Of a stretch of 64,000 nt of DNA, positions 14,727 to 28,501 are shown piece by piece (position 1 is the stretch's first letter; every line of letters starts with the position of its first letter). The stretch is taken from positions 1,681 through 65,680 of the forward strand of contig CAZGSX010000003.1 of assembly GCA_964528475.1 (NCBI GenBank), read 5' to 3'. Under the pieces are notes generated by a model. It saw only the letters and a program-made list of their open reading frames with translations. It had not been told where the DNA came from and did not search any database. Origin of the DNA: an uncultured Anaerolineales bacterium. GTDB lineage: Bacteria > Chloroflexota > Anaerolineae > B4-G1. The translations under genes were made by a program, and so were the position numbers.

Positions 14727-15794
14727 GTGCAGGAGCTTGGTGGCGGAACGATGACTAACCAGCGCCATCCTGGCGAGTCGCAGCAAGGCCTCGTACGTCA
14801 GTTCCTCGTGCCTCTGGTGGTCACGCTCGTCAGCGTCGCCATGGTGTTGGGAGGCTTCCTGCTGGTGTGGCTAGACACTGCTCCGATGTCGCCGATGCCA
14901 ACCCAGGTTCTTGTCCAGCGGCCCTCCGTCACCCCTTTCCTGCCCACACTCACGCAGCAGCCACCGGCGACCCCCGTGGCTACCTTCGTGAGCCCCCTCT
15001 CGCCGCCGGAAGGGCAGACAGCGGAGCCGGAGATCAGTGTCGAGCCACCGATGGGAACACTTGCTCCCACCGCTCCGTGGACGCCAGTGCCTCCCCGTAC
15101 CGGAGCTCCCACAGCAGCACCCACGTGCGCTCAGCCGCCAGGCTGGTTCATCTACACTGTGCGGGAAGGCGATACGTTGACCGGACTGGCTCGGCTGTCC
15201 GGAGTGACGACGTGGACTCTAATGCGCAGCAACTGCCTGGAGACAACGGTCCTCTACGCTGGTCAGCGGCTCTACGTCCCACCGTCTTTCTACACTCCGC
15301 CCACGCCACAGCCCTCTCCGTGCGGACCCCCTAGCAACTGGGTGGTGTACACGGTACAGCCGCAGGAGACCCTCTACAGCCTGTCCATTCGCTTTGGTGT
15401 GGACATCGAGGTTCTGCGACGGGCCAATTGCCTGCGGAGCTACACGATCTATGCCGGGCAGGTGCTGTATGTGCCGCCTGGCCCGTGGCCGACCGCCACG
15501 TCCACCCCGTCCGTCTCGCCCACTCCCACGGAGCAGACGACAGCGACATCAACCCCGCCCTCGGTAACCCCGAGCCCGACGTTGCCCCATGCCACCGCGA
15601 CGCCATCGCCCAGCGCCACACAGGCGCCAGAACCGAGCGGCAGCCCCTCGCCAAGTCCGACGCCCTCTTCCACCGGCACGCCGACTGCCACCGGCACTTC
15701 CACGGTCACAGCGACGCCGACGGCGACATGGACGCCGACAGTGACGTCAACCGCGACGCCTACCCCAACCACCCCAACTCCTGAAGGCAACTAG
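14727..15794 (+). CDS. LysM-domain peptidoglycan-binding membrane protein with Pro/Thr/Ser-rich linkers
   Basis: N-terminal TM. Two LysM motifs (YTVREGDTLTGLARLSGVTTWTLMRSNCL...YAGQRLYVP and YTVQPQETLYSLSIRFGVDIEVLRRANCL...YAGQVLYVP). C-terminal PT-rich low-complexity tail. Confidence 0.8.
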   Translation: MQELGGGTMTNQRHPGESQQGLVRQFLVPLVVTLVSVAMVLGGFLLVWLDTAPMSPMPTQVLVQRPSVTPFLPTLTQQPPATPVATFVSPLSPPEGQTAEPEISVEPPMGTLAPTAPWTPVPPRTGAPTAAPTCAQPPGWFIYTVREGDTLTGLARLSGVTTWTLMRSNCLETTVLYAGQRLYVPPSFYTPPTPQPSPCGPPSNWVVYTVQPQETLYSLSIRFGVDIEVLRRANCLRSYTIYAGQVLYVPPGPWPTATSTPSVSPTPTEQTTATSTPPSVTPSPTLPHATATPSPSATQAPEPSGSPSPSPTPSSTGTPTATGTSTVTATPTATWTPTVTSTATPTPTTPTPEGN

Positions 15795-15924
15795 ACGCAG
15801 CTCCCGACTCACACGGTGGGTGCCCTCCAGCCACCGCATGCGGCAAGTTGCCTGGACGCGTAAAGCGTTCGTGGTAGAATGCCATTGACATCGTCCGTGA
15901 CGCCCTAAGGAGCGGCCTACTGCT

Positions 15925-17478
15925 ATGAGAGAGCTGGATAGTCGCTGGTGGAAGGGACTGGCACTCGTCGTCAGCGTGGCGCTGATCGTAGTGGCCGTGC
16001 ACGTGTTTACGACGACGCCGTTTGATGCAGCTGAGTTGACAGCGACGTCAACAGCAACGACATCGTATCACGTAACTCCTTCCCCAACAGCTACCTCCAG
16101 CGCGACGCCGCGCCCGACCGCCACTTCCAGACCGACAGAGACGCCCAGCAGGACGCCCAGCCCAACGCTGACCCCGTCTCCCACGCCTCCCCAACCAACG
16201 GCCACACCGACACTGACGCCGACACCGAGTCCAACGCCGCTCCCCAAGTGGATACCCACACCGGTCACGTTCCTGCCCGGGACCCCAACGCCCACGCCCG
16301 TCGTCGTGACGCGGACCAACTCGATCACAGAGACATTGACCCTAACCGCGCCAGAGCCCCTACCACTTGTGGATCAACGGGAAAATGTCATCAATGTGCT
16401 TCTCCTGGGCTCAGATCAGATCGGCACTGAGCAAGTAGGTCGGACCGACACAATCGTCGTCGTCAGTATCCATCCCGAGTTGCCCTCGGTCTCGCTCTTG
16501 TCCATTCCGCGCGACTTCTACGCCTGGGTTCCCGGCCGTGGCTTTGAGAAGATCAACACAGTGTTCAGCCGCGGAGGGCCAGCATTGATGAAGGCGACCA
16601 TCCTTCAGAACTTCGGGATACCTATCGACTACCATGCAAGGGTGGGATTCGATAGCTTTGCCAGGATCGTCGATGCCCTAGGCGGTGTAGAGGTGGCGGT
16701 CGAGTGTCCCCTCCACGACACCTTCCCCGATCCAGCGTCTCCCTCTGGGACAACCGACGTGGACTGGGAGCCGGGCATTCATCACCTGGACGGCAAGCAC
16801 GCCCTCTGGTACGCTCGATCTCGCTGGAGCACCAGCGACTTCGACCGCCACCGCCGCCAGCAGCAGGTGCTGCGCGGCCTCTATCGGCGTGCGATGAGCC
16901 TGGGCATCATCCCCAAGATTCCGTCTATCTGGAGCGCCTGGCGCGATAGCGTGTCCACCGATCTGGACCTCCAGGGGCTGATCCGCCTGGGCGCGATTGG
17001 GGCGCGGTTGGATACAACGTATATCAAGAGTCGCTTTGTTGATCAGTCCGTCCTGACCTCGTGGCGGGGTCCGGAGGGGATGTACCTTCTTCTCCCCGAC
17101 CACGAGGCGCTGGCATCGCTGGTTCGCTCAGCACTGGCGCCGCCACAGCCCGTGGAACGGAGGCCGCTGTGGCGCGTTGAGGTGGTGAATGGCGCACCTC
17201 GCGGGGACTGGGGGCTGGTGGCCGCAGAGAGACTGCGGTGGGAGGGCTTCGGTGTGGTGGACGTCCGGGCTGCGGATGGACCGCAGATTCGTACTCAGAT
17301 CATCGATCTGACGACAGCGTCGGATCCGGGATCGGCAACGGCTCTGAGCCAGCTGATGCGCCTGTATAAGCGACGACCAGATGATGTCATCACCAGCCCA
17401 ACTGAAGATAGAGGGATCGATTTTCAAGTGCTGCTGGGACTGGACTATGATCCCTGCGCAGCAGTCCGATCGCGCTAG
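15925..17478 (+). CDS. LytR-CpsA-Psr (LCP) family cell-envelope phosphotransferase with C-terminal LytR_C domain
   Basis: N-terminal TM, PT-rich linker. LCP core [25 protein letters not shown]...[23 protein letters not shown]...[47 protein letters not shown] -10 at 15875-15880. Confidence 0.9.
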
Positions 17479-17926
17479 ATCCAGTCATCAGCGACGCACC
17501 GGTCCCCCCACTTCTCCCGACCTACCCGTGTCGAACTGAACCAAGAACCGAACCGCTGTCCGGTGAGCATGCCGAGCCTACTGTCCAAACGTCCGTCAGA
17601 ATGCGTCTGTCTTCAGGAGGGGCTGTAATGGCAACTGCGCATGGTACGGAGTATCTCCGACTACGCTGGGGCCTGCGCCCGCCACCGAACGAGCCAACCG
17701 ACGGCAGTTGCGCCCCTTCCTCAGGAGTTAGGACTGCCACTCCAGCCTGGGCAGGACACGTCTGTCCGAGACTGGTCATTCACGGCGCCTTTCTCCCGCT
17801 TTGCTTCGGACCCGAAGGCCGGGGACTAGGGTGACGATGAGGTAGCATCTCGGGCGAGAGACAGGACCGCCACCACAGCGGGTCCCACAAGCAACGCTCT
17901 GGCGACGGATCCCTCGCGAGGAAGGA

Positions 17927-19399
17927 CTATGCAGACTGGATTCCGGATATCGGAAGAGCGTAGCGGACCGTGAGTCCTCCTCCGGGCGTCTCCTCGGCCC
18001 ACATCCGCCCCCCGTGCGCTTCCACAATGTGACGGGCAATGGAGAGCCCTAACCCACTCCCTCCAGTTGCCTGGCGGCGACCCGGATCACCACGCCAGAA
18101 GCGCTCGAATAGATGTGGCAACTGGTCAGGCGATACCCCCGGGCCGTCATCGATCACGGAGATGACGGTCTCTGTGCCTTCCCGCAGAGCTTCCACCCTG
18201 ATGCTTCCGCCCCGAGGGACATAGTGTAGGGAATTGGTGAGCAGGTTCCCCATTACCTGGGCCAGCCGGTCCCGGTCGGCGAAGACAGTGGGCAGAGCAG
18301 TCCTTGTCTCCAGGGCCAGGGCAACCCCTTGCTCTTGAGCCGCGGGCTGATACGCCTCCACAATGCCCTTGAGAAAGGCCTGGAGGTTCACACTGTCCCG
18401 CGCCAGCTGCAGCTTCCCGGCATCGGCGAGAGCCAGGATGCGCAAATCCTCAATCAAGCGGGCGAGTGTCCGGGTTTGAATGAGCGCTGACTCCAGATTC
18501 TCACGATCAGTAGGATAGATCTCGTCCAGCATAGCCTCCAATGTGCCCTGGAGAACAGTGAGAGGGGTGCGCAGCTCGTGAGCAATGTCAGCCGTCTGAC
18601 TACGGCGGGCTTCCTCTATGCGGTGAAGGCTCTCCGCCATTTCATTGAAGGACTCCGCGAGCTGCGCGACTTCGTCCTGTCCCCCAACCTCTGCCCGGAC
18701 CGAGAGATCGCCCTGCGCGATGGCCTCGCTGGCAGCTGTCAGCTCTCGCAGAGGAGCGGTGATCGAACGAAACAGCAGCCCCCCGATGATGAGCGCAACG
18801 CCCATGGCCACAGCCCCTCCTATCCAGAGATTCCTTCGGACGCGAGAGAGAAAGGCCGCTTGGGCAGGATCCAGGGGCCAGTCGGGCTGGGCTCTGAGCG
18901 CCGGGAGTAGGTAGCCCACAACCTCCCCGCCCACTTCGATGGGAACCCCCTCATCGACGTCAACCGGCGAGACCACCCCGCCGGGGAGGCCTTGAGTGTC
19001 CGCGACGACCTGCCCCTGCGGCTCTGCAACCCGGAACTCCAACACAGTTGGCGGACCACCCGGGCCGCCAGAATCCCTGCTCCGCCAGCGGTGCCACGGA
19101 CTGTGCCGCTCCTCGAGGGTGTTCTGAAGTCCTTCCCAGGAGCCACGCACCTCATAGTAGTCAGCCAGCTGAGTCGTCAACTCCTCCCATGCGCCACTGC
19201 GGGTCACTGCGTACCGCCGGAAGGCGCTCTCGGTGGCGCGGCCCGTCAGTATCGAGACAGTTCCCACGGCGACGAGGATGACAACCAAGAAAGCTAGCAT
19301 CCCCTTGCCGAATAGACTACGCATAATCACCCCGTCCAACTGAGTCGCTGTCGCCAGCGAGGCCTTGGGATCCGTTGCCCGCGAGAGGGACCCGCGCAC
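17927..19399 (-). CDS. Sensor histidine kinase (periplasmic sensor, HAMP, HisKA, HATPase_c), OmpR-partner type
   Basis: Two TM helices flanking a ~150-aa periplasmic domain. HAMP. H-box HELRTPLTVLQGTLE. G-boxes GGSGLGLSIARHIVEAHGG. Immediately downstream of the response regulator gene. Confidence 0.9.
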   Translation of the reverse strand: MRGSLSRATDPKASLATATQLDGVIMRSLFGKGMLAFLVVILVAVGTVSILTGRATESAFRRYAVTRSGAWEELTTQLADYYEVRGSWEGLQNTLEERHSPWHRWRSRDSGGPGGPPTVLEFRVAEPQGQVVADTQGLPGGVVSPVDVDEGVPIEVGGEVVGYLLPALRAQPDWPLDPAQAAFLSRVRRNLWIGGAVAMGVALIIGGLLFRSITAPLRELTAASEAIAQGDLSVRAEVGGQDEVAQLAESFNEMAESLHRIEEARRSQTADIAHELRTPLTVLQGTLEAMLDEIYPTDRENLESALIQTRTLARLIEDLRILALADAGKLQLARDSVNLQAFLKGIVEAYQPAAQEQGVALALETRTALPTVFADRDRLAQVMGNLLTNSLHYVPRGGSIRVEALREGTETVISVIDDGPGVSPDQLPHLFERFWRGDPGRRQATGGSGLGLSIARHIVEAHGGRMWAEETPGGGLTVRYALPISGIQSA

Positions 19400-19419
19400 T
19401 GCTTGCGGGCCGGGAGATG

Positions 19420-20121
19420 CTAGGCACTTTCCAGCTCCGGGTTCAATCGGTACCCCGCCCCGCGAACAGTGAGGACGTAACGAGGATCGGAGGGTGCGGA
19501 CTCGATCTTCTGGCGCAAGTTCTTGATATGGGCATCGACCGTGCGCTCGTAGGCCTCGAACGCCACCCCTTGCACCGCCTCGAGAATCTCCGCCCGAGAG
19601 AAGACTCGCCCCGGTCGGCCCATCAGAACCTCCAGCACATCGAACTCGGTGGGGGTCAGGTCCACTCGGTCACCCTCAACGGTCACCGTGTGGGTAGCCC
19701 GGTCCAGAGTGATCGGTCCCGCCCGCAGTACTGGAGCCGGCTCCCTGCCCTCGGAGGGCTGGGCCCGGCGCAGGACAGCGCCTACACGGGCGACAACCTC
19801 CCGAGGGCTGAAAGGCTTGGTGACATAGTCGTCAGCCCCCAGCTCCAGCCCCACAATACGGTCGGTTTCCTCAGCCCGGGCGGTGAGCATGATGATGGGA
19901 ACATCTCGCTCGCGACGAATTCGCCGAGTGAACTCGAGGCCGTCCATCTTAGGCATGAGAATGTCGAGGACGACCAGATCCGGCTGTTCGTGGCGTGCCG
20001 TGTAGAGGGCATCCTCGCCATTGTAAGCTGTAACGACGCGGTAGCCGGCCTGTTCCAGGTACGAACGTAGCAGCCGGACGATTTCCGGCTCATCATCGAC
20101 GACCAAGATTGTCTGGCTCAT
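19420..20121 (-). CDS. OmpR/PhoB-family response regulator (REC + winged-helix)
   Basis: ILVVDDEPEIVRLL...DLVVLDILMPKMDGLE receiver. C-terminal winged helix LTPTEFDVLEVLMGRPGRVFSRAEILEAV...VDAHIKNLRQKIE. Confidence 0.9.
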   Translation of the reverse strand: MSQTILVVDDEPEIVRLLRSYLEQAGYRVVTAYNGEDALYTARHEQPDLVVLDILMPKMDGLEFTRRIRRERDVPIIMLTARAEETDRIVGLELGADDYVTKPFSPREVVARVGAVLRRAQPSEGREPAPVLRAGPITLDRATHTVTVEGDRVDLTPTEFDVLEVLMGRPGRVFSRAEILEAVQGVAFEAYERTVDAHIKNLRQKIESAPSDPRYVLTVRGAGYRLNPELESA

Positions 20122-20371
20122 GGATCACCTTCCCTGCTCATCACGGTGCAAGATGGACTCAAGGTAGTATAGCGGGAACACCTCGATTCGAACAGCACCC
20201 GGACGTGCAGGGCGGCGACTGAGAAGCGTATCACCGCCTCTGCTGTGACGTGGATGGGCTCTAGATCATGCCACAAGGAACTCGCCCCACGGTCTCTGCT
20301 CCACGCAATTCCCTTCGTGTGTCCTCGCATCGCCAATCGCTGCGGATGTTCTGAGCTTCATCGTAGGATAC

Positions 20372-20410
20372 CAGCATTGCGTGAAGATTTGATGAAGGTC
20401 GGATGAAGAT
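20372..20410 (+). promoter_or_regulatory. Array of four direct hexamer repeats at exact 11-bp periodicity: putative OmpR-family response-regulator binding site upstream of the TCS operon
   Basis: TGAAGA(20372) N5 TGAAGG(20383) N5 TGAAGA(20394) N5 TGTGAT(20405). Adjacent to a minus-strand extended -10 TGGTATCCT (reverse complement of 20355-20363). Confidence 0.6.
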
Positions 20411-20843
20411 CCGATGTGATTCAGCAGATCCAGGCGGTGAGGTGCAGCGGATGTACGTCGTCGAAAGGAAGCATCGAGTGCACGCAAGGCACCATCTGGA
20501 GGCCACCGTGGAGAAGAGTGCGACTCCAACGCCCACATCACCCTCTGGCGCAAGGTTGACGTCGGATGCGGACTTTCGCGCGGACATGGCTGATGGGCCC
20601 CACTCCCTAACGTCACGACTGAGGCAGGTGCAGCACTTGATGGTGTGTGCATACCCTGCACTAAAGATCAGATTCGGATGCAGATTGAGAATCGTGGGTG
20701 GTCCGGCTGCAGGGTCACAAATAGAGGACGGTACGCGCGCTAACAACAGCTACGAGAGGGGGCGACTGGGATAGACCAAGTCATAGAATCGATGGATGTT
20801 ATTGAATGGCGTTGCGGATGATCTACAAAGCCTAGGCAAATAC

Positions 20844-20872
20844 TTGACAAACTGCCCGTTGTGTGTTATAAT
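20844..20872 (+). promoter_or_regulatory. Consensus sigma-70 promoter TTGACA-17-TATAAT upstream of fasciclin gene
   Basis: TTGACA 20844-20849, 17-bp spacer, TATAAT 20867-20872. About 150-nt 5' UTR before ATG 21024. Confidence 0.7.
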
Positions 20873-21023
20873 GTTGATAGTAAGAGTTCAGATTGAGGTT
20901 CAAAGAAGCAAGAGCTCAGATACGGGGAACGATGTGACAGCCGGGGACAGGAGGACACCAGACCCTCCCGCGGTTCAGACAAAGATCATCTGGTGATCAC
21001 ATAAAGACAGGAGAGTAGACATC

Positions 21024-21989
21024 ATGTTGAAGGCAAGAGTTGGCTTATTACTGGCGGTCGCAATGTTGGTCGCCGCGGTACCCGTGGCGTCCGCTGCTGG
21101 ACATCAGACGATCGTCGATATCGCCGTGCAGGATGGCCGATTCGAGACGTTGGTCGCTGCTGTGACGGCTGCGGATCTGGGCGGCGCTCTGTCCGGTGGG
21201 GAATGGACGGTTTTCGCTCCGACCGATGAGGCTTTCGCGAAGCTCGGGTTGAGCCCCAGCAACGTCGCGACTGCGTTTAGCAAGGACGAGCTGACGGATA
21301 TCCTGCTATACCACGTGCTCGAGGGGGAAGTCTATTCAGATAAGGCACTGGCCCTACAGGGTGACGTCACGATGGCCAACGGTCAGCGGGCTGGCCTCAA
21401 GAGCTTCCAGGGCGACATCTACGTCAACGATGACTCCAAGGTCATTATTGCGGACATCCCCGCCTCCAATGGCGTGATTCACGTAGTGGACACAGTGATT
21501 CTGGGACCATGGCCCAGGACAGGCGAGGAGTCGGATGCACCAGTGTCGGCTCCGGCAACGGGCGACACCATCGTCGACATAGCAGCAAGTGATGGGCGGT
21601 TCAGCACGTTGGTGGCAGCGGTAACAGCCACTGGCCTGGCAGACGCGCTATCCGGCGGGGAATGGACGGTGTTCGCTCCCACCGATGAGGCCTTCGCGAA
21701 GTTGGATTTGAATGCTGGCAACATCGCGCAGGCATTCAGCAAGGACGAGTTGACCGATATCCTGCTTTATCACGCCCTCCCGGTGGAGGTGTTCTCGGAT
21801 AAGGCCCTGACCCTCGTGGGCGACGTGACCATGGCTAACGGTCAGCGCGCCGGCCTGAAGAGCTTCCAGGGCGACATCTATGTCAACGATGACTCGAAGG
21901 TGATCATCCCCGACATCAACGCATCCAACGGGGTGATTCACGTCGTCGATACCGTGATTCTGCCGCCGTGGCCGCGGACCGATAAGTAA
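21024..21989 (+). CDS. Secreted protein with two tandem fasciclin (FAS1) domains
   Basis: Signal peptide. Two ~155-aa repeats each with FAS1 motifs (TLVAAVTAA..LGGALSGGEWTVFAPTDEAFAKL, DILLYHVL, SNGVIHVVDTVIL). The repeats are also about 85% identical at DNA level (21096-21560 vs 21561-21985). Confidence 0.85.
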   Translation: MLKARVGLLLAVAMLVAAVPVASAAGHQTIVDIAVQDGRFETLVAAVTAADLGGALSGGEWTVFAPTDEAFAKLGLSPSNVATAFSKDELTDILLYHVLEGEVYSDKALALQGDVTMANGQRAGLKSFQGDIYVNDDSKVIIADIPASNGVIHVVDTVILGPWPRTGEESDAPVSAPATGDTIVDIAASDGRFSTLVAAVTATGLADALSGGEWTVFAPTDEAFAKLDLNAGNIAQAFSKDELTDILLYHALPVEVFSDKALTLVGDVTMANGQRAGLKSFQGDIYVNDDSKVIIPDINASNGVIHVVDTVILPPWPRTDK

Positions 21990-22023
21990 CGCTCTCTGTC
22001 TGACAGGGGCTACGGGCAGGTTT

Positions 22024-22059
22024 GCAGCGACGGAGGCCATCGAATGGCCTCCGTCGCTG
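22024..22059 (+). terminator. Rho-independent terminator for fasciclin gene
   Basis: Perfect 16-bp inverted repeat GCAGCGACGGAGGCCAT-CGA-ATGGCCTCCGTCGCTG followed by TCTTATTTCC. Confidence 0.75.
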
Positions 22060-22546
22060 TCTTATTTCCTCTCGCACCATTGACCACCACTGTAGGGGCA
22101 CAATGCCCTATGTCTCCCCGCCAGCAGCCCCCCCAATCGGAGAACGCCAAGCCGCTTCGGCGAACTCCCAGGTCAGCTTCCAGGCATCTGCGTTGTCTCA
22201 ACCTCTCATGGGCTGCTGCGCGCTGCCTTCCCGGTGCTCCGCCGTCATGGAGAATTGTTAGGGCATGTATTAACAGGGACTCGAGCCTCAAAGCGGCTCA
22301 AGACCGGGTCAGGCGACGGGGGAAGGAAGCGGGAACTCGCATGTAGATTTGCCGATCATCAGCCGCAGAATGCCAAGACGTGCGTGCTCCGGAAGGCTTC
22401 AAGAGCGGTAAAAGACGAGAGGGGGAGTGTGGTCCACCCCCCCCGCCGGCACTACCTAGATGGCAGGACGGCAGTCCTGATCAACATCCGTCACGGCCAT
22501 CTACCGTCGTCCTGCATCTGGTTCTCAATACTGACACCATCTGGGA

Positions 22547-23368
22547 CTAGCGGCCCATGCCTCGACCACGCGGGCCCTGCTGTGGTCGGGGGCGTCCCCC
22601 GCGTCCAAAGCCCTTCGCACCGGGCATGAAGCCCCGGTCCAATCCTTCCTTCATCCACTCGGCCCGGTCCTCTGACAGACGTCCCTCCTCGATCGCCTGC
22701 CTCCTGGCCTCGCTCTGAGCCGCCTCCAGGGCGTCCCGCACTGCCTCCAAGTCGACTTCTCCAGCCTCAGCAAGCTCCTCCACGCTCTTCCCACCGTGGA
22801 GTTCCTTGAAGAGCTCGACGGGCTCCATTCCCAGCGCATCGGCCACCGCATCGAATAGCCCCGTCCAGCCATCACCAAACCGACCGAGAAGACGACCTCC
22901 GAAACGCTTAGTGCCAACTATCCGCGGCTCGCAGGACCGGTTGAGCTGGTCAGCAATGCGCTGTTCTAGCTGCTCCAGCATCTCCTCTCTCTGTGCCTCG
23001 GTCAGCCGACCTGCCTGCACCGCGTCGTCCAGCCGGACCGCGTGCTCCGCCAGAGCGCTCTCAAGCAGCTCCTGGGGATCAGCGCCCTCGGCCTTGGCGA
23101 TCTCGACGAATGTGTGGCCGTCTTCGAGGGCGGCCATGACCTCCTCCTCGCTCAGCCCTGTGAGATCGGCGGTCACGCTCGCCAGGCCCTGAAAGGGCAG
23201 CGGATCGGCAAAGCGACCTCCGCCAGGGAACGGTCCCCTGCGCATAGTCTGCCAGTCACCAAACGGCGGCTGAGGGCCCCGGGCATAGGCCACGCCCACG
23301 CCCATCAGCAACGCCAAGGTACCTGCAACAATGCCCAGTACGACGTAGCGTCTCCTACCCTGAAACAT
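22547..23368 (-). CDS. Exported hypothetical protein, possible CpxP/Spy/ZraP-like (LTXXQ-motif) periplasmic stress protein with Gly/Arg-rich tail
   Basis: N-terminal TM/signal (VVLGIVAGTLALLMGVGVAYA). LTEAQREEMLEQLEQ (LTXXQ-like). Helical Glu/Ala-rich repeats. GAGGAGG RBS. Promoter carries the same 11-bp repeat array as the TCS operon. Confidence 0.5.
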   Translation of the reverse strand: MFQGRRRYVVLGIVAGTLALLMGVGVAYARGPQPPFGDWQTMRRGPFPGGGRFADPLPFQGLASVTADLTGLSEEEVMAALEDGHTFVEIAKAEGADPQELLESALAEHAVRLDDAVQAGRLTEAQREEMLEQLEQRIADQLNRSCEPRIVGTKRFGGRLLGRFGDGWTGLFDAVADALGMEPVELFKELHGGKSVEELAEAGEVDLEAVRDALEAAQSEARRQAIEEGRLSEDRAEWMKEGLDRGFMPGAKGFGRGGRPRPQQGPRGRGMGR

Positions 23369-23430
23369 ATCGCACCTCCTCGTAGACGTAATCGTAGCCT
23401 AAACGCTCCTAGTATGATACCACAATAATA

Positions 23431-23469
23431 TGAAGATCTGATGAAGAAACAGTGCAGAATCGATGCAGG
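23431..23469 (+). promoter_or_regulatory. Second array of four hexamer direct repeats at 11-bp periodicity at the promoter of 22547-23368 (minus strand)
   Basis: TGAAGA(23431) N5 TGAAGA(23442) N5 TGCAGA(23453) N5 TGCAGG(23464). Minus-strand extended -10 TGGTATCAT (reverse complement of 23413-23421) about 9 bp away, so the repeats occupy the -35 to -75 region. Confidence 0.6.
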
Positions 23470-23473
23470 TCGC

Positions 23474-23665
23474 TTAGCTCTGCGTCAATTCGCCTCGCCA
23501 TGACTCAGGGAGCCGCAGCCAGTATCCGCCGTAGCCTCCGATGTAGAAGCGCAGCTTCGTGGCATCCGGTTCCTGACGCCGCAACAGATCGCGCGAGACG
23601 CACACCGTCAGGCCATCCACGGTCTCAAAGCTTACATAGGCGTCTGGATTGTCGGGCGCGGCCAT
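23474..23665 (-). CDS. Small hypothetical protein (63 aa), uncertain
   Basis: ORF only; lies between the CDF gene and the repeat array; no recognisable motif. Confidence 0.25.
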   Translation of the reverse strand: MAAPDNPDAYVSFETVDGLTVCVSRDLLRRQEPDATKLRFYIGGYGGYWLRLPESWRGELTQS

Positions 23666-23780
23666 CCGACCGGATGGTCCCTTGAAAAACGTTCATCACC
23701 CCATACACACCCACGTCCAGCGGATGCTCAGGATCCCGCCCCGCTTGCGGATGTATGCACGGGCAAAGGTGGATGGTATG

Positions 23781-24713
23781 TCAGCCGTTCTCTGATTCAT
23801 GGTTGTTCCCCTGATACGGACAGATGATCGTTCCGCCAGCACAACTCTGACACTCGACCTGGATGGTGGTATGCTCGATCCCGAACTGTTCAGCGAGCGC
23901 CGCCTCCAGGCGCTCCAAGATGCTTTGAGCTTCACTGATCGACTGGTCATCAAACACTACATGAGCGCTGAGCGCGATGTATCCGGGGCTTACCGTCCAG
24001 ACGTGCAGATCGTGGACCTGGGAGACGCCGGGGACGTCATTCATGGCCTCTGCCACCTGCGTTGCTGTCAAGCCCTGTGGCACACCTTCGATGAGGATGT
24101 GAAGTGCCTTGCGAAGTACGTTCCCAGCACCCACCAGGATAATGACAGCGATGACCAAACTGATCAGCGGATCGACAATTGTCCACCCGGTCAATACGAT
24201 GATCACGCCCGCGACGATGACGCCGATCGACGCCAGCGTGTCGCCGAGGACGTGCAAGAAGGCACTGCGGACGTTGAGATCCTCATGGTCGTGTCCACGC
24301 AAGACGAACGCCACCACGAGGTTCACGATCAAGCCGATGACGGCCACGACAAGCATCGGGCCAGCTAGGATGGGTTGGGGGTTCGAAAAACGTCCGATTG
24401 CCTCACGGACTATCTCGAACACCACCAACATCAGCGTCGTACCATTCACCAGGGCTGCCAGCACCCGCAGACGATGATACCCGTACGTGTGGCGGTCATC
24501 GGGTGGGAGCGACGTGAGGCGAATGGCAACGTAGCTCAAACCGAGAGCAAATGCGTCCAAGAAGACGTGAGCGGCATCTGATAGAAGCGCCAAGCTTCCG
24601 GTGACCAGCCCGCCCACCAATTCGGCGAAGAAGATCAGCCCGGTCAACGCCAGGGAGACGATGAAGCGCCTCTCTATCCCGCCGGACCCAACATGACCAT
24701 GGCTGTGACTCAT
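23781..24713 (-). CDS. Cation diffusion facilitator (CDF) family divalent metal exporter (CzcD/ZitB-like)
   Basis: His-rich N-terminus MSHSHGHVGSGG. Six TM helices with HxxxD motifs (LLSDAAHVFLDAF; FLHVLGDTLASIG). C-terminal cytoplasmic domain with Cys/His cluster. Confidence 0.9.
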   Translation of the reverse strand: MSHSHGHVGSGGIERRFIVSLALTGLIFFAELVGGLVTGSLALLSDAAHVFLDAFALGLSYVAIRLTSLPPDDRHTYGYHRLRVLAALVNGTTLMLVVFEIVREAIGRFSNPQPILAGPMLVVAVIGLIVNLVVAFVLRGHDHEDLNVRSAFLHVLGDTLASIGVIVAGVIIVLTGWTIVDPLISLVIAVIILVGAGNVLRKALHILIEGVPQGLTATQVAEAMNDVPGVSQVHDLHVWTVSPGYIALSAHVVFDDQSISEAQSILERLEAALAEQFGIEHTTIQVECQSCAGGTIICPYQGNNHESENG

Positions 24714-24941
24714 CGACCAGATCTCCGATGGGCCATTCCACCCTGTTTAACATTCATCTTGATGCATATCGTACCTCCAGACAGGGCGGCTGTCAAGAGA
24801 TGCATCCGGCGCAACACCGTTCGCTCGTACTCCGGGTCGCGCTGGCGAGCGGCACCCAGTCCAGCGGGGTGGGGTGAGACATTAGGCCCAAGACCTCCCC
24901 TCCGCCCAAGCGCCAGCCGGCTGAGAGTCGGCTGCGCCGCT

Positions 24942-25469
24942 CTAACCACCCTGGTCTTCCCTCTGTCGGTACGACCTCGCGCGGCTGACGTAGTGAGCGG
25001 CGCCATGCCGGAGGCGCTCAAGCTCCTCGTCGGTAAGCTCGCGAGCCACCCTGGCCGGCATCCCCAGAGCCAGATGACGGGGTGGAATGGCCTGATCCTC
25101 GGTCACCACCGCACCGGCACCGACCATCGCCTCACTGCCCACACTGGCGCCATTCAGCACGATGGCCCCGATGCCGATGAGTGCCCCGTCAGCCACAGTG
25201 GCCCCGTGTACCACTACGTGATGACCAACCGTAACGCCGGCACCCAGGCTGCACGGCAGGCCATCGTCGGTGTGAATCACCGACAGATCCTGCACATTGG
25301 TGCGGGGCCCGATCACGATTGGCGCGTTGTCGCCCCGGAGGACACAGCCGAACCAGATGCTAGACAGGGCACCGATTTCCACGTTTCCCACAACGGTAGC
25401 ATTTGGCGCGACAAACGCGCTGTCGGCAATCAGCTCCGGATGATCGATCATTAGTAGCCCTTCCCACAA
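24942..25469 (-). CDS. Gamma-class carbonic anhydrase / hexapeptide-repeat (LbH) family protein
   Basis: Left-handed beta-helix hexapeptide repeats (VGNVEIGALSSIWFGCVLRGD, VIHTDDG..., VGHHVVVHGATVADGALIGIGAIVLNGASVG). Likely start MIDHPEL. Confidence 0.85.
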   Translation of the reverse strand: MWEGLLMIDHPELIADSAFVAPNATVVGNVEIGALSSIWFGCVLRGDNAPIVIGPRTNVQDLSVIHTDDGLPCSLGAGVTVGHHVVVHGATVADGALIGIGAIVLNGASVGSEAMVGAGAVVTEDQAIPPRHLALGMPARVARELTDEELERLRHGAAHYVSRARSYRQREDQGG

Positions 25470-26392
25470 GGAATGCAGATCGCCGCACGAACCTGGCCCG
25501 CCACCCCCTCAACTGACGAGATCTGGAGCAGACAGTCACTGTACGTCTCTCCTGAGATGACGCCATATGGCGCTGACCAGTATGAGGCCCGTCTTTATTG
25601 TACCACAGTCAGCGCTACACCCCAGTGCCCGCCAAGGCGAAACGTGGGAAGCGCGCGGACGGCAGGAGTCAATACAGGCTTTCACCTCATTTCACCCGGA
25701 AGGGCCGTCTCCGAGACAAAGTCTGTCTGGACGAACGGCAAATCATCCCGAGGATCCTTGCCGAGGCCAGATCTCGGAATGCCCGCCAGCTTCGACGGAG
25801 AGAGCGCGATGGTGCCCAGATGGCATTCATCGATGCCTCTGGTGCGGCCTCCCAGGTGTTGGACCAACCGAACGGAGCGGGCTGGCGCCACGGCCTGCTT
25901 CCGGTACAATCCCCGTCATTGAATGAAGTACGTGGTTCGAGGTGTGCGAAGAGAAGCGACCGCCAGACAAGCGGAGCTGAGAGCCCTTCCGGGTTTCGTT
26001 CTCATCGACACCGACAAGACCGCAGTTTGGGTTGAAGGGCCCGGAGCGGAGGTGACCACCTCTGGGGTAGGTCTCATGTCCGATTTCACGATTATAAAGA
26101 TGCCCCTCGGGCACGAGTACTGCCGTCAAATGGGCACGTCGCGGCATAACCCAGTCCCGCCGCGACAGGGGTTGGGAATTCCAAGATGCCTCGATGGCGC
26201 CCTCTCGGTAACTTTCGTGGCGTCCTCCTTGCCCGGCGCGCTGACGGGGGAGGCTCCTCGATTCCATATCGCTGGCCTCTGCTTCAATCCGGAAGCATCG
26301 CCCACGAGTACAAGAGGTGGGGTTCTGCCGATACGCGTCGTCGCGGACACGCCATGAGACTGCAACTGGGCCGCTAGGTAAGGAACACGACT

Positions 26393-28501
26393 ATGCGCCA
26401 GATGGAACACGTGGCATTGGATAGGATCTTCTATCCGGAAAGCATTGCGGTCATCGGTGTGTCCGAGAGACCGGACAACTTGGCGGCCAACATCGTGCAC
26501 AACTTGCTCGCCTTCGAGTATCAGGGTGACGTCCACGCCGTGGGGCTCAAAACCGGTGAGGTGCATGGGGTCCCCATTCTCAACTCGGTCGAAGCCCTCC
26601 CTGACAACGTGGACCTGGCAGTAATCCTCACGCCGGCAACCGCCGTTCCTGGCCTACTCCGAGCCTGCGGAAAGAAAGGGATTAAGAGGGCGATCATTGA
26701 GTCCGGCGGTTTCACGGAGCGCTCAGACGCAGGGCATCTCCTTGAGCAGGAGGTGGTCGCGGCAGCCCACGCCTGGGACATACGCTTCATGGGACCAAAC
26801 TGCATCAGCGTCATCAATCTGGAGAACGGGCTCTGCCTGCCCTTCGTCCGGCTGGATCCGAAAGCGATCAGACGAGGACGCGTCTCGGTAGTGGCCCAGA
26901 GTGGCGGCATCTCGATCACCTATCTGATCCTGCTTAGCGAAGCCGGCCTGGGCGCCAACAAGATTGTGAGCATGGGGAATAAGACCGATCTGGACGAAGT
27001 CGACTACCTGGCCTATCTGCTGAATGACCCGACCACAGAAAGCTTGTGCCTCTATCTGGAGAGCATGGAGCGAGGGCGGCAGCTGCTCGAAATAGCGGCG
27101 GCCTCATCCAAGCCCATCATCGTGCAGAAGGCCAACCGCGGCCGCGCCAGCCGCCAGATTGCCTTTTCCCACACGGCGGCACTGACCAGCGATGATGTCA
27201 TCGTCGATGCCGCGCTACGGCAGGCCGGTGTCGCCCGTGCGCTCAGCTTCGATGACGCGGTGGCGCTAGCCCAGGCATGCACCCTCCCTGCGGTGAGAGG
27301 CGAGGATCTGCTGATCATCTCCCGATCAGGAGGGCATGCGGTGGTCGCTGCCGATGCAGCAGAGGCCCAGGGCTTCCATCTGGCGCCAATCCCGGAGAGC
27401 TTCGCCAGCGAGGCACGAGGCCTGTTCCGCGCGGATGTGATTGCGCCCACCAATCCACTCGATCTGGGCGCAATCTTCGATTTCGACCTCTATGCCCATA
27501 TCGTGGAGCGGGGGCTGCAAGCCCTGGATCCCGATGTACTGCTCCTGATCCATACATATAGCTCGGGACCCGAGGCGACCATGTCTCTGCACATGGTTCG
27601 GCGTCTGGAAGCATTGAGCCGGGGCCTGGAGACCCCGCTGGCCCTCTGTGCGTTCGCGCAGCGTGCAGACGTAGAGGCGCTCAGCCTCGAGACGGAACTA
27701 CCCGTCTTCACGAAGATCGAGTCTGCGGTGCGGGCGCTAGCGGCGTCGCGTGAGCGACACACTCGAACCGTCGGGCTCCTTCCCCTGCCTTCGACACCCC
27801 CTCAGAGATCTGACGAGGTGGAGGCCATCGTCGCCCAGGCAGGGACCCTGACCGCGGATCGAGCCCTCCATCTGTGTGCAGCCTTCGACGTCCCGGTGGA
27901 GACCTGGGCCGTCGTAGAGGACCAGGAAAGCGCCGTCAGCGCGGCCGCCAAGTTGGGATATCCCGTTGCCCTTAAGGGCCTCTCGTCCCGCGTTTCGCAC
28001 AAGTCCGACGCCGGGCTCGTCGTGCTGGACATTGCCGATCCCGAACGGCTTCGCCACGCCTTTGAGGAGATCGTTGAAGGGTTGAGCAAGGCTGACCACG
28101 ACGAACCGTGCAGACGGGTGATGGTACAGCCTATGGTATTCGGAGGGCGAGAGGTCATCATCGGCGGGAAGCGCGACCCCAACTTCGGCCCGGTGGTGAT
28201 GTTTGGCCTTGGTGGTGTGTATGTGGAGGTTCTGAGGGACGTCGTTTTCCGCCTGGCCCCGCTCTCTCGTGATGAGGCCTGGCGCATGTTGGATGAGATA
28301 CGCGGTCGTCAGCTCCTACATGGTGTTCGAGGCGCAGGGGGAGTAGACCGGGAGGCCATCGTCGACGCACTCCTGTGTTTATCGGATCTCATGGTCGCCT
28401 GCCCGGAAATCGCGGAGCTCGACATCAACCCGCTCCTCGTTCTCGAGCAGGGCGCTGCGGCAATAGATGCACGGGCGGTCGTCAGAAGCCAAACAGCTTG
28501 A
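26393..28501 (+). CDS. Acetyl-CoA synthetase (ADP-forming) / acetate--CoA ligase family protein (second paralog)
   Basis: CoA-binding domain (IAVIGVSERPDNLAANIV...). ATP-grasp C-terminus (GYPVALKGLSSRVSHKSDAGLVVLD...MFGLGGVYVEVLRDVVFRLAPL). Collinear homology to 7424-9541. Confidence 0.85.
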   Translation: MRQMEHVALDRIFYPESIAVIGVSERPDNLAANIVHNLLAFEYQGDVHAVGLKTGEVHGVPILNSVEALPDNVDLAVILTPATAVPGLLRACGKKGIKRAIIESGGFTERSDAGHLLEQEVVAAAHAWDIRFMGPNCISVINLENGLCLPFVRLDPKAIRRGRVSVVAQSGGISITYLILLSEAGLGANKIVSMGNKTDLDEVDYLAYLLNDPTTESLCLYLESMERGRQLLEIAAASSKPIIVQKANRGRASRQIAFSHTAALTSDDVIVDAALRQAGVARALSFDDAVALAQACTLPAVRGEDLLIISRSGGHAVVAADAAEAQGFHLAPIPESFASEARGLFRADVIAPTNPLDLGAIFDFDLYAHIVERGLQALDPDVLLLIHTYSSGPEATMSLHMVRRLEALSRGLETPLALCAFAQRADVEALSLETELPVFTKIESAVRALAASRERHTRTVGLLPLPSTPPQRSDEVEAIVAQAGTLTADRALHLCAAFDVPVETWAVVEDQESAVSAAAKLGYPVALKGLSSRVSHKSDAGLVVLDIADPERLRHAFEEIVEGLSKADHDEPCRRVMVQPMVFGGREVIIGGKRDPNFGPVVMFGLGGVYVEVLRDVVFRLAPLSRDEAWRMLDEIRGRQLLHGVRGAGGVDREAIVDALLCLSDLMVACPEIAELDINPLLVLEQGAAAIDARAVVRSQTA

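What the first reader, a model, noticed from the sequence alone, without database searches (positions are those of the whole stretch)
17927..24713. Inferred envelope or metal-stress module: sensor kinase/regulator pair, LTXXQ-type periplasmic protein and CDF exporter, resembling Cpx/Zra systems
The target gene (22547-23368) has an N-terminal signal or TM anchor, an LTEAQ (LTXXQ-like) motif and helical acidic repeats. In Proteobacteria, CpxP/Spy/ZraP-family proteins are controlled by OmpR-family regulators (CpxR, ZraR/BaeR). A His-rich CDF Zn/Co/Cd exporter lies immediately upstream on the same strand, with a 63-aa ORF between them. The system appears to be an analogous but unannotated regulon in a non-proteobacterial high-GC lineage. 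The CDF gene may be co-transcribed.
Basis: partly seen in the sequence, partly recalled or inferred. Interest (0 to 1): 0.6.

Follow-up and report, generated by a model that had tools for sequence, protein, structure and literature searches.

The report
Sensor system with conserved secreted partner
A two-component sensor system in a Chloroflexi-type bacterium appears to switch on itself and one secreted, acidic, all-helical protein through a shared repeat in both promoters; this resembles the Cpx/Bae envelope-stress systems of E. coli, but the protein belongs to a different, uncharacterised family.

Summary
The genes are real, but the labels need correcting. The 273-aa exported protein ("X") is not a CpxP/Spy/ZraP (LTXXQ) protein. 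It has no Pfam hit to that family, hhalign gives 1.3% probability against Spy, and fold searches find no match. It is two copies of a five-helix domain related to DUF2680. Its "LTEAQ" most likely caps the start of a helix.

The link to the sensor system is well supported. A heptamer repeat (TCTTCAT, 11-bp phasing), followed by a -10 box at fixed distance, occurs at two places in the 64-kb window: before X and before the regulator-kinase operon. The same element precedes X or regulator genes in about ten other Anaerolineae loci. Among 80 genomes from three phyla, 47 have an OmpR-type regulator within 7 kb of an X homologue, and 20 also have an HtrA protease.

The metal-stress reading is weak. 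The CDF exporter has its own promoter without the repeat, it neighbours X only in the closest relatives, and X has no conserved His/Cys/Met.

The "63-aa ORF" is probably the end of a 108-codon selenoprotein gene with two adjacent in-frame UGA codons.

The parts
17927..19324 (-). Sensor histidine kinase: two TM segments flanking a ~140-aa extracytoplasmic domain, then HAMP, HisKA and HATPase_c. The longest ORF runs to GTG 19399; the likely true start is ATG 19324.
   Evidence: Pfam domains. The best NCBIfam match is BaeS_SmeS over the full length, 286.7 bits, below its cutoff of 500. The L006 orthologue (70% identity) aligns from its residue 1 to 19324.
19420..20121 (-). OmpR/PhoB-family response regulator (receiver domain plus winged-helix Trans_reg_C).
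   Evidence: Pfam 1e-35 and 3e-27. No NCBIfam equivalog reaches its cutoff. It is 81% identical to the L006 orthologue.
20365..20420 (-). Candidate autoregulated promoter of the regulator-kinase operon. It has four heptamers at 11-bp phasing (ATCACAT cgg ATCTTCAT ccga CCTTCAT caaa TCTTCAC), then 7 nt, then TGgTATCCT (-10 at 20370-20365). The leader to the regulator ATG is about 240 nt.
   Evidence: A PWM built only from other genomes scores 37.8 bits here, the top hit in the window; the maximum over shuffles is 10.6. The same element is found at the orthologous position in L006, 7408-7436.
20844..20872 (+). Consensus sigma-70 promoter (TTGACA-17-TATAAT with TG) for the fasciclin gene. It has no heptamer repeats, so it is not part of the inferred regulon.
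   Evidence: 12 of 12 match. The PWM finds no site here.
21024..21989 (+). Exported protein with two fasciclin (FAS1) domains. It lies between X and the regulator operon, convergent with X. Its terminator is at 22024-22060.
   Evidence: Pfam Fasciclin 5.8e-58, two stretches. Terminator. The same position and orientation are seen in L006 at 73% identity.
22420..22444 (-). Terminator-like hairpin with a T-run, about 100 nt after the X stop codon.
   Evidence: Consensus scan only. The count of such sites in the region is not above the shuffle expectation, so this is weak evidence.
22547..23368 (-). X, a 273-aa exported protein. It has a signal peptide or anchor (aa 1-29, AYA|RG) and a basic G/R/P-rich linker. 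Acidic five-helix domain 1 covers aa ~57-146 and contains RLTEAQ at 121-126. A second basic linker leads to acidic domain 2 (aa ~166-247, containing RLSEDR), followed by a basic RG-rich tail.
   Evidence: ORF. AF2 pLDDT >90 in both domains. Weak DUF2680 hit at 14.9 bits for X itself, while 70 of 72 relatives hit DUF2680. Charge pattern. More than 1859 relatives were found by profile search.
23414..23458 (-). Candidate regulator-dependent promoter of X: TCTGCAC tgtt TCTTCAT caga TCTTCAT, then 7 nt, then TGgTATCAT (-10 at 23419-23414). It is about 45 nt upstream of ATG 23368, with an RBS GGAGG.
   Evidence: Exact match to the repeat pattern. The PWM from other genomes scores 32.2 bits, second best in the window. 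Its geometry is identical to the regulator promoter and to the L006, L099 and L102 X promoters.
23474..23800 (-). Probable selenoprotein gene of 108 codons from the 'CC/Se motif' family. Its ATG at 23800 overlaps the CDF stop by 20 nt. Tandem in-frame TGA TGA lies at 23698-23693, and a conserved hairpin CCATCC-GGTC-GGATGG lies at 23677-23662.
   Evidence: NF041239 matches across the TGA pair (27-33 bits, cutoff 40). Replacing the pair with CC scores 33.5 bits against 25.4 for AA. The layout is identical in 8 metagenome loci, with synonymous variation around an invariant TGATGA and hairpin.
23781..24713 (-). CDF-family divalent-cation exporter (ZitB/CzcD-like).
   Evidence: Pfam Cation_efflux 5.6e-50 and ZT_dimer 3.8e-20. 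TIGR01297 scores 287 bits, above its cutoff. The ZitB equivalog scores 253.6 bits, below its cutoff of 408.
24768..24796 (-). Promoter-like site for the CDF-selenoprotein unit (TTGACA-17-TACGAT), with no heptamer repeats.
   Evidence: 10 of 12 match. No PWM hit.

Best explanation
The core unit is a three-gene module, X plus response regulator plus histidine kinase, split here by an inserted fasciclin gene.

Proposed mechanism:
- The membrane kinase (BaeS-like over its whole length) senses an extracytoplasmic signal and phosphorylates the OmpR-family regulator.
- The regulator binds arrays of three to four TCTTCAT heptamers spaced 11 bp apart. These arrays replace the -35 region of two promoters.
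- From there it activates its own operon (autoregulation) and the gene for X.
- X is exported. It consists of two acidic five-helix domains, each made of three short helices plus a DUF2680-like hairpin, joined and flanked by basic Gly/Arg-rich disordered segments.

The most likely role of X is an extracytoplasmic stress-response partner of the kinase. It could feed back on the sensor domain, act as a holdase or adaptor for damaged secreted proteins, or do both. That would make it a functional analogue, but not a homologue, of CpxP/Spy.

The CDF exporter and the small selenoprotein upstream form a separate transcription unit with its own promoter. They can at most add read-through transcription into X.

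Shown computationally: the gene content, the shared and conserved cis-element, the cross-phylum synteny, and the non-membership of the LTXXQ family.

Inferred: regulator binding, activation rather than repression, the stimulus, and the biochemical role of X.
For: Cis-element:
- The pattern TCTTCAT-N4-TCTTCAT gives its four best matches (0-2 mismatches) only at 23430-23458 and 20381-20409 in 64 kb.
- Both sites are followed after 7 nt by TGgTATC(A/C)T.
- A PWM built from nine promoters of other genomes scores 37.8 and 32.2 bits at these two sites. The next independent hit scores 2.7 bits and the shuffle maximum is 10.6.
- The element is conserved at both promoters in the orthologous L006 locus, although X itself is only 48% identical there.
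- It is also found upstream of X-family or regulator genes in L014, L016, L019, L021, L023, L027, L028, L043, L099 and L102.

Synteny:
- 47 of 80 genome loci with X homologues have an OmpR-type regulator within 7 kb, and 41 have a kinase.
- Of the 34 regulator genes within 3 kb of X, 26 are on the same strand: 17 as RR-HK-X and 9 as X-RR-HK.
- Regulator density is 7.8 per 100 kb within 3 kb of X, against 1.9 beyond.
- 20 of 80 loci also carry an adjacent HtrA-like protease, and 23 of 80 a MacB-type ABC ATPase.

Protein:
- The AF2 models are confident, with pLDDT >90 in both domains.
- The N-terminal signal sequence is conserved across relatives.
- The kinase aligns end to end with the BaeS_SmeS model.
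Against: - There is no experimental data of any kind.
- The PWM sites in other genomes were first found with a pattern taken from this window. Their sequences are therefore not independent evidence, although their positions upstream of X or regulator genes are.
- The regulator gene has an unusually long leader of about 240 nt.
- X and the regulator operon are separated by an unrelated gene in this genome.
- The domain has no structural match that would indicate a chaperone or any other activity.
- Two of the orthologous elements (L024, L030) point away from X.
- The stimulus is unknown.
- The CDF-selenoprotein-X order is conserved in the closest relatives, so some functional link to metal handling cannot be excluded.
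Confidence: 0.62

Rival explanations
1. Metal (Zn/Co/Mn) stress module. The kinase senses metal excess, and X is a ZraP-like extracytoplasmic metal-binding or buffering protein working with the CDF exporter, all as one regulon.
For: - The order gamma-CA, CDF, selenoprotein, X is conserved in the window, L006/L103, L099 and L102.
- In L006 the regulator operon begins with a GDT1/UPF0016 cation transporter, and an ArsR-type regulator lies upstream of the CDF.
- The X domains are very acidic, with net charge -13 to -14 each.
- No terminator was found between the CDF and X.
Against: - The CDF promoter lacks the heptamer element. Only two sites in the window have it.
- None of 80 wider X loci has a CDF, GDT1 or fasciclin gene within 7 kb.
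- No His, Cys or Met position in X is conserved in at least 50% of 72 relatives, apart from the initiator Met and two linker positions.
- No match to Pfam LTXXQ or to any metal-binding family is listed for X or among the 25 families most often matched by relatives.
Confidence: 0.15
2. X is a true, divergent member of the CpxP/Spy/ZraP (LTXXQ) family.
For: - An RLTEAQ motif at aa 121-126, with a degenerate second copy RLSEDR.
- An exported, all-alpha protein linked to a two-component system.
- hhalign places the family's GRLTxxQ motif on the second LTPEQ of Spy.
Against: - That hhalign alignment covers only 20 columns, with probability 1.3%.
- No LTXXQ hit in X at E<=0.1, or among the top 25 families of 72 relatives at E<=1.
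- The profile search against PDB sequences does not retrieve CpxP, Spy or ZraP.
- Foldseek with the whole model and with a single domain gives no hit below E=0.38 and no Spy or CpxP chain in the top 50.
- In the model, T123 sits immediately before helix 5 (residues 124-143), so the motif is best read as an ordinary helix N-capping box.
Confidence: 0.03
3. X is a dedicated accessory subunit of the kinase (like LpqB for MtrB, CseA for CseC, or YycH/YycI for WalK). It would have no chaperone or effector role, and its induction would only keep its stoichiometry with the kinase.
For: - In Actinomycetota, X is the gene directly after the kinase (RR-HK-X). In many Anaerolineae and Firmicutes it is directly before the regulator (X-RR-HK).
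- X evolves much faster than its neighbours (48% against 70-82% identity), as expected for a protein co-evolving with a variable sensor domain.
Against: - In this window and in L006, X has its own strong regulator-type promoter and sits apart from the operon. It could therefore greatly exceed the kinase in amount.
- 33 of 80 homologue loci show no regulator within 7 kb.
- A repeat architecture with disordered basic linkers is unusual for a stoichiometric sensor partner.
- This rival overlaps with the best explanation and cannot be separated from it with the tools used here.
Confidence: 0.15
4. The proximity of X and the two-component system is coincidental, and the repeats are chance or a different factor's site.
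For: - The genes are 2.4 kb apart with an unrelated gene between them.
- Consensus-type scans are noisy.
Against: - The same element with the same geometry occurs at both promoters, and again in orthologous and more distant loci.
- The synteny holds across three phyla.
Confidence: 0.05

Closest known systems
CpxP / Spy / ZraP (LTXXQ family) with the CpxAR, BaeSR and ZraSR systems of Enterobacteria
   Same: - A small exported all-alpha protein whose gene sits next to an envelope-stress two-component system.
- It is apparently induced through direct-repeat regulator boxes.
- The kinase is BaeS-like over its full length.
- In actinobacterial relatives a DegP/HtrA-type protease completes the triad.
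- It has an LTxxQ-like motif.

The roles of CpxP as CpxA inhibitor and DegP adaptor, and of Spy as a BaeR/CpxR-induced chaperone, are taken from general knowledge and were not tested here.
   Different: - No sequence or profile similarity.
- The predicted fold is a compact five-helix domain present twice, not a single bent hairpin forming a cradle dimer.
- It has basic Gly/Arg-rich disordered linkers and tail.
- It occurs in lineages generally regarded as single-membraned (Chloroflexota, Actinomycetota, Firmicutes), where there is no classical periplasm.
DUF2680 (Pfam PF10925; Bacillus subtilis YckD)
   Same: - The last two helices of each X domain, with the conserved A-V-x-x-G-R-L-T-x-x-Q turn, match this model.
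- 70 of 72 relatives hit it, with best E=1.2e-9.
- Both are exported proteins.
- No function is described in the searchable literature.
   Different: - X itself scores only 14.9 bits against a gathering threshold of 25.
- X carries an extra three-helix HTH-like sub-domain before each hairpin.
- The unit is duplicated (triplicated in some relatives).
- Disordered basic segments are added.
Operon-encoded extracytoplasmic accessory proteins of two-component systems (LpqB-MtrAB, CseA-CseBC, YycH/YycI-WalRK, LiaF-LiaRS)
   Same: An exported protein encoded directly beside the kinase or regulator genes, with conserved gene order.
   Different: No homology was detected to any of them. None appears among the Pfam or NCBIfam hits listed. 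In this window X has an independent promoter.
Secretion and envelope-stress systems with an HtrA protease next to the regulator pair (CssRS-HtrA/HtrB of Bacillus and Streptomyces, MprAB-PepD of Mycobacterium)
   Same: Actinobacterial X loci have HtrA divergent from, or following, an OmpR-type regulator and HAMP kinase. The comparison with CssRS and MprAB gene orders is from general knowledge.
   Different: - Those systems are not known to include an X-like protein.
- The window itself has no HtrA gene in the cluster.
- The regulator does not reach any NCBIfam equivalog cutoff.

Membership tests
LTXXQ / CpxP-Spy-ZraP family (Pfam PF07813 and relatives) | Significant match to the family HMM | tested here: not met
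   There is no LTXXQ, CpxP or Metal_resist hit for X at E<=0.1. None appears among the 25 families most often matched by 72 relatives at E<=1.
LTXXQ / CpxP-Spy-ZraP family (Pfam PF07813 and relatives) | Detectable homology to a solved member (E. coli Spy; sequence checked against PDB 3OEO) | tested here: not met
   hhalign of the 72-sequence profile against Spy gives probability 1.3% over 20 columns around the motif only. A profile search of PDB sequences does not return Spy, CpxP or ZraP.
LTXXQ / CpxP-Spy-ZraP family (Pfam PF07813 and relatives) | Two LTXXQ motifs within one ~100-aa helical hairpin domain | tested here: not met
   There is one LTEAQ (aa 122-126) and one degenerate LSEDR (aa 231-235). 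Each lies in a separate repeat, at the turn before the last helix.
LTXXQ / CpxP-Spy-ZraP family (Pfam PF07813 and relatives) | Spy/CpxP fold (long bent helices forming a cradle-shaped dimer) | tested here: not met
LTXXQ / CpxP-Spy-ZraP family (Pfam PF07813 and relatives) | Induction by an envelope-stress two-component system (a functional feature, not a homology feature) | tested here: inconclusive
   A conserved regulator-box-like promoter is shared with the regulator operon. Actual induction cannot be tested with these tools.
DUF2680 (PF10925) | Score at or above the Pfam gathering threshold (25 bits) | tested here: inconclusive
   X scores 14.9 bits (E=0.029), below threshold. 70 of 72 aligned relatives match at E<=1, with best E=1.2e-9. 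X is therefore a divergent relative rather than a clean member.
OmpR/PhoB-type two-component system | Receiver plus winged-helix Trans_reg_C regulator, and a HAMP-HisKA-HATPase_c kinase | tested here: met
   All domains score far above their gathering thresholds.
BaeSR (equivalog level) | NCBIfam equivalog cutoffs for BaeS and BaeR | tested here: not met
   BaeS_SmeS scores 286.7 bits against a cutoff of 500. BaeR scores 221 bits against a cutoff of 380. The proteins are BaeS-like in architecture only.
Cation diffusion facilitator (TIGR01297) | Superfamily HMM above its cutoff | tested here: met
   287.4 bits against a cutoff of 82. The ZitB equivalog is not met (253.6 against 408).
CC/Se motif family (seleno)protein (NF041239), for the small ORF | HMM match at or above 40 bits, with CC or C-Sec at the motif | tested here: inconclusive
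   The read-through products score 27.4 bits (window) and 33.5 bits (L006), below the cutoff. The alignment spans the TGA pair. The score falls from 33.5 to 25.4 bits when the pair is changed from CC to AA, so both TGAs fall on the motif.

The most novel reading that the evidence does not exclude
The X family is the single-membrane-lineage counterpart of CpxP/Spy. The family consists of repeats of a three-helix plus DUF2680-hairpin domain, has more than 1800 members, and has no described function.

Under this reading, X is a secreted protein induced by a BaeS/MprB-like two-component system through TCTTCAT direct repeats. It both feeds back on the kinase sensor domain and handles damaged secreted proteins, in concert with HtrA where that protease is present. 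The role would have evolved independently of the proteobacterial LTXXQ proteins.
Probability: 0.3. Interest if true: 0.65.

Novelty: new variant of a known kind. Interest (0 to 1): 0.5.

Why it matters
Envelope and secretion-stress signalling is well mapped in Proteobacteria and a few Firmicutes and Actinobacteria, but hardly at all in Chloroflexota.

This locus offers three things for such work:
- A concrete, testable regulon: a defined binding motif, two promoters and one dedicated target.
- A likely context for a large domain family of unknown function (DUF2680-related repeats), which is linked to OmpR-type sensor systems across three phyla.
- A case study in motif over-reading. It suggests that an 'LTXXQ' motif alone is not evidence of CpxP/Spy ancestry, because here it most likely acts as an ordinary helix cap.

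The neighbouring small gene would matter separately if it truly encodes two adjacent selenocysteines. Bacterial Sec insertion depends on the spacing between the UGA codon and its hairpin, and a tandem UGA pair tests how strict that spacing is.

Tried and rejected
- **Whole-protein and single-domain Foldseek against the PDB.** Only insignificant hits appeared (bestrophin, designed toroids, ACP), so no fold assignment was possible.
- **Profile search of PDB sequences.** The top hits were 8VD6 (E=4.7e-11) and 8TNM. The only protein-design papers citing these codes are the ProteinGenerator and Chroma papers, so both appear to be de novo designs. I rejected them as biological relatives.
- **Rfam scan of 17000-26500 at E<=1.** It returned only two sub-threshold chance hits. 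There is no riboswitch in the long fasciclin or regulator leaders and no SECIS family hit.
- **RNA folding of the conserved hairpin region.** The energy is no better than shuffled sequence (z about 0). Support for the hairpin rests on sequence conservation, not thermodynamics.
- **Search for a GDT1 or 98-aa ORF remnant in the window's regulator leader.** None was found.
- **tRNA scan for tRNA-Sec in the window.** None was found among the three tRNAs, which is uninformative for a 64-kb fragment.
- **Literature searches for DUF2680, PF10925, YckD and LTXXQ.** No functional study of this family turned up.
- **First attempt to seed the metagenome scan with the 13-sequence alignment.** It failed because the alignment was too divergent. 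A 6-sequence alignment worked.
- **Tat export.** I considered it because of the RRR in the N-terminus and rejected it, because relatives have K-rich n-regions without RR.

Full report
**1. What is in the region**

Read on the minus strand, the gene order is as follows:
- a gamma-carbonic-anhydrase-like gene (24942-25469);
- a CDF exporter (23781-24713);
- a small reading frame (23474-23800, discussed in section 7);
- the 273-aa exported protein, called X here (22547-23368);
- on the plus strand, a gene for a protein with two fasciclin domains (21024-21989);
- back on the minus strand, an OmpR-type response regulator (19420-20121) and a HAMP/HisKA/HATPase_c histidine kinase (17927-19399).

The orthologue alignment puts the kinase's true start at ATG 19324.

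**2. X is not an LTXXQ/CpxP/Spy protein**

- Pfam gives no LTXXQ-type hit. The only suggestive match is DUF2680 (PF10925) at 14.9 bits, covering aa 117-139.
- A direct search finds only 17 close homologues. A profile search finds more than 1859 relatives of 220-370 aa with two or three repeats. Most carry DUF2680 hits and are either unnamed or carry unrelated automatic names.
- Of 72 aligned relatives, 70 match DUF2680, with best E=1.2e-9. No LTXXQ, CpxP or Metal_resist family appears among the 25 most frequently matched families.
- hhalign of this profile against E. coli Spy aligns only 20 columns around the motif, at probability 1.3%. The Spy sequence was first checked against PDB 3OEO.
- AlphaFold2 predicts two similar five-helix domains with pLDDT >90 (aa ~59-143 and 166-244). 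The segments between and around them are disordered. A single-domain model has mean pLDDT 90.4.
- Foldseek against the PDB gives nothing better than E=0.38, and no Spy or CpxP chain in the top 50.
- In the model, T123 of RLTEAQ lies immediately before helix 5 (residues 124-143). The motif therefore reads as a helix N-capping box, not a sign of shared ancestry. That is my inference from the model.
- The two domains are strongly acidic (pI ~4.2, net charge -14 and -13). The linkers and tail are basic and rich in Gly and Arg (pI 11.5-12).
- Apart from the initiator Met and two linker positions, no His/Cys/Met position is conserved in at least half of the relatives.

**3. The link to the two-component system is real**

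Immediately upstream of X the sequence reads: TCTGCAC-tgtt-TCTTCAT-caga-TCTTCAT, then 7 nt, then TGgTATCAT.

Upstream of the regulator gene it reads: ATCACAT-cgg-ATCTTCAT-ccga-CCTTCAT-caaa-TCTTCAC, then 7 nt, then TGgTATCCT.

- Searching the 64-kb window for TCTTCAT-N4-TCTTCAT gives four matches with 0-2 mismatches. All four lie at these two places.
- Heptamer direct repeats with 11-bp phasing that overlap the -35 position are the classic arrangement for activation by OmpR/PhoB-family regulators. This point comes from general knowledge, not from a test here.
- In the orthologous metagenome locus L006, the same array with the same spacing to a -10 box precedes X. It also precedes the operon that contains the regulator. 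In that locus the regulator is 81% identical, the kinase 70%, and X only 48%.
- Scanning all fetched loci (1.03 Mb) found 27 matches. Most lie just upstream of X-family genes or regulator genes in Anaerolineae loci. Two further loci, L099 and L102, show the same.
- A position weight matrix built only from nine promoters of other genomes scores 37.8 and 32.2 bits at the two window sites. The next independent hit scores 2.7 bits, and the maximum in shuffled sequence is 10.6.

Within this window the inferred regulon is therefore exactly two promoters: the regulator-kinase operon and X.

**4. Synteny across phyla**

- In Gaiellaceae (Actinomycetota) the order is HtrA-like protease (divergent), regulator, kinase, X. 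Sometimes a MacB-type ABC transporter lies between the kinase and X.
- A scan of species-representative genomes returned 80 loci with X relatives. They come from Anaerolineae and other Chloroflexota, many Actinomycetota, and some Firmicutes such as Brevibacillus, Paenibacillus, Syntrophomonas and Anaerovorax.
- Using tblastn with the window's own proteins, 47 of 80 loci have an OmpR-type regulator within 7 kb, 41 have a kinase, 20 have an HtrA homologue, and 23 have an ABC ATPase.
- Regulator genes are four times denser within 3 kb of X than further out (7.8 against 1.9 per 100 kb). Of the 34 within 3 kb, 26 are on the same strand as X, 17 as RR-HK-X and 9 as X-RR-HK.
- The X...regulator-kinase order on one strand in the window matches the Anaerolineae pattern X-RR-HK, with the fasciclin gene inserted between.

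**5. The CDF/metal component**

- The CDF has its own promoter-like site (TTGACA-17-TACGAT, 24796-24768) without heptamers. The fasciclin gene has a perfect consensus promoter. Neither is picked up by the matrix.
- No CDF, fasciclin or GDT1 homologue was found within 7 kb of X in any of the 80 wider loci.
- The order gamma-CA, CDF, small gene, X is nevertheless conserved in the closest relatives (L006/L103, L099, L102).
- In L006 a GDT1-family transporter sits in the regulator operon.
- No terminator was detected between the CDF and X.

A lineage-specific metal connection and some read-through transcription therefore remain possible. The conserved core, however, is X plus the sensor system, not the exporter.

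**6. Most likely mechanism**

Shown computationally:
- an OmpR-type regulator and a BaeS-like kinase;
- a shared, conserved direct-repeat promoter element at the regulator operon and at X;
- an exported, two-domain acidic protein that co-occurs with such sensor systems across three phyla, and with HtrA in one of them.

Inferred:
- the phosphorylated regulator binds the heptamers and activates both promoters;
- X acts outside the cytoplasm as a stress-response partner of the kinase. It could provide feedback on the sensor domain, act as a holdase or adaptor for damaged secreted proteins, or do both.

This makes the system work like Cpx/Bae with CpxP/Spy while failing the membership tests for that family. 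I put about 0.75 on the regulatory link, and about 0.4-0.5 on the specific extracytoplasmic role. My overall confidence in the explanation is 0.62.

**7. The small gene**

The 63-aa ORF has only 13 relatives among 1.84 billion representative proteins. Its reading frame continues upstream through TGA TGA into a 34-codon ORF whose ATG (23800) overlaps the CDF stop. L006 has the same layout.

The evidence that this is one gene:
- Eight metagenome loci all keep the layout ...IRWTWVCMG-TGA-TGA-xFFxGPSGRM... . Codons on both sides vary synonymously.
- The TGATGA and a 16-nt hairpin (CCATCC-GGTC-GGATGG) starting 15 nt downstream are invariant across those loci.
- With the TGA pair written as CC, the product matches NCBIfam NF041239 'CC/Se motif family (seleno)protein' across the junction. 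It scores 27.4 bits for the window and 33.5 bits for L006, below the cutoff of 40.
- For the L006 product, the score drops to 30.1, 28.2 and 25.4 bits for CA, AC and AA respectively. Mutating the nearby Cys costs only 1 bit.

Both TGAs therefore fall on the family's Cys-Cys motif. The simplest reading is a selenoprotein with two adjacent selenocysteines, translationally coupled to the CDF gene.

Caveats: the hairpin is not thermodynamically unusual, no Rfam SECIS model matched, and the Sec machinery could not be checked in a 64-kb fragment.

**8. Novelty and verdict**

I found no publication on the function of DUF2680 or YckD, or on this family's link to two-component systems, in the searchable library.

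A sensor system that induces a dedicated exported partner is a known kind of arrangement. The family filling that role here, its motif, and its distribution across three phyla appear to be undescribed. I rate it a new variant of a known kind, with interest 0.5.

Noticed in passing
window 23474-23800 (-); TGA TGA at 23698-23693; hairpin 23677-23662; also L006 4441-4755 and L096-L103: The '63-aa ORF' is the 3' part of a 108-codon frame with two adjacent in-frame UGA codons. Both fall on the Cys-Cys motif of the NCBIfam 'CC/Se motif family (seleno)protein'. An invariant hairpin lies 15 nt downstream. The layout is conserved in 8 metagenome loci with synonymous variation around it. This is a probable tandem-selenocysteine protein, translationally coupled to the CDF gene.
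   Followed up: partly
window 20844-21023 (+): The fasciclin gene has a perfect TTGACA-17-TATAAT promoter with a TG extension, and a 5' leader of about 145 nt with no Rfam match. The gene occupies the same inserted, convergent position in the orthologous L006 locus.
   Followed up: partly
window 22547-23368 compared with L006 4867-5751: X evolves far faster than its neighbours. It is 48% identical between the two loci, against 70-82% for the regulator, kinase, CDF, fasciclin and gamma-CA proteins. The promoter repeats in front of X are nevertheless conserved.
   Followed up: yes
window 20122-20365 (-); L006 7437-8626: The regulator gene has a leader of about 240 nt after its repeat-containing promoter. 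In L006 the same promoter is followed by a 98-aa ORF and a GDT1/UPF0016 cation-transporter gene before the regulator. No remnant of these is detectable in the window.
   Followed up: partly
L024 6667-6684 (-) and L030 6674-6691 (-): In two Anaerolineae loci the heptamer array points away from X. In L024 it sits about 40 nt upstream of an exported alpha/beta-hydrolase (S9-peptidase-like) ORF, which could be a further regulon member in that lineage.
   Followed up: partly
window 14727-17478 (+): Beyond the kinase's 3' end, on the opposite strand, lie two cell-envelope genes: a LysM-domain protein and a LytR-CpsA-Psr family protein. Both have long Thr/Pro-rich low-complexity linkers. The neighbourhood is thus rich in wall-associated functions.
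   Followed up: no
loci L016, L021, L024, L028, L058, L092 and others: A MacB-type ABC ATPase, sometimes with an FtsX-like permease, lies directly next to X homologues in 23 of 80 loci. This suggests a second recurrent partner besides the sensor system and HtrA.
   Followed up: partly
PDB 8VD6 and 8TNM against the X family profile: Two apparently de novo designed proteins (cited in the ProteinGenerator and Chroma papers) match the natural family profile, with E=4.7e-11 for 8VD6. The match is at the 'GK(T/S)xxEIAxxxGxSxD' three-helix motif. The generative models seem to have reproduced a common natural helix-turn-helix-like sequence pattern.
   Followed up: partly
L024 6809-7390, C-terminal tail of its X homologue: Some single-domain X relatives end in Met/Gly/Arg-rich tails (for example HGKMDGMRGMRGMPGMRG) that recall Met-rich Cu(I)-binding motifs. 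The window protein has only a short RGRGMGR tail.
   Followed up: no
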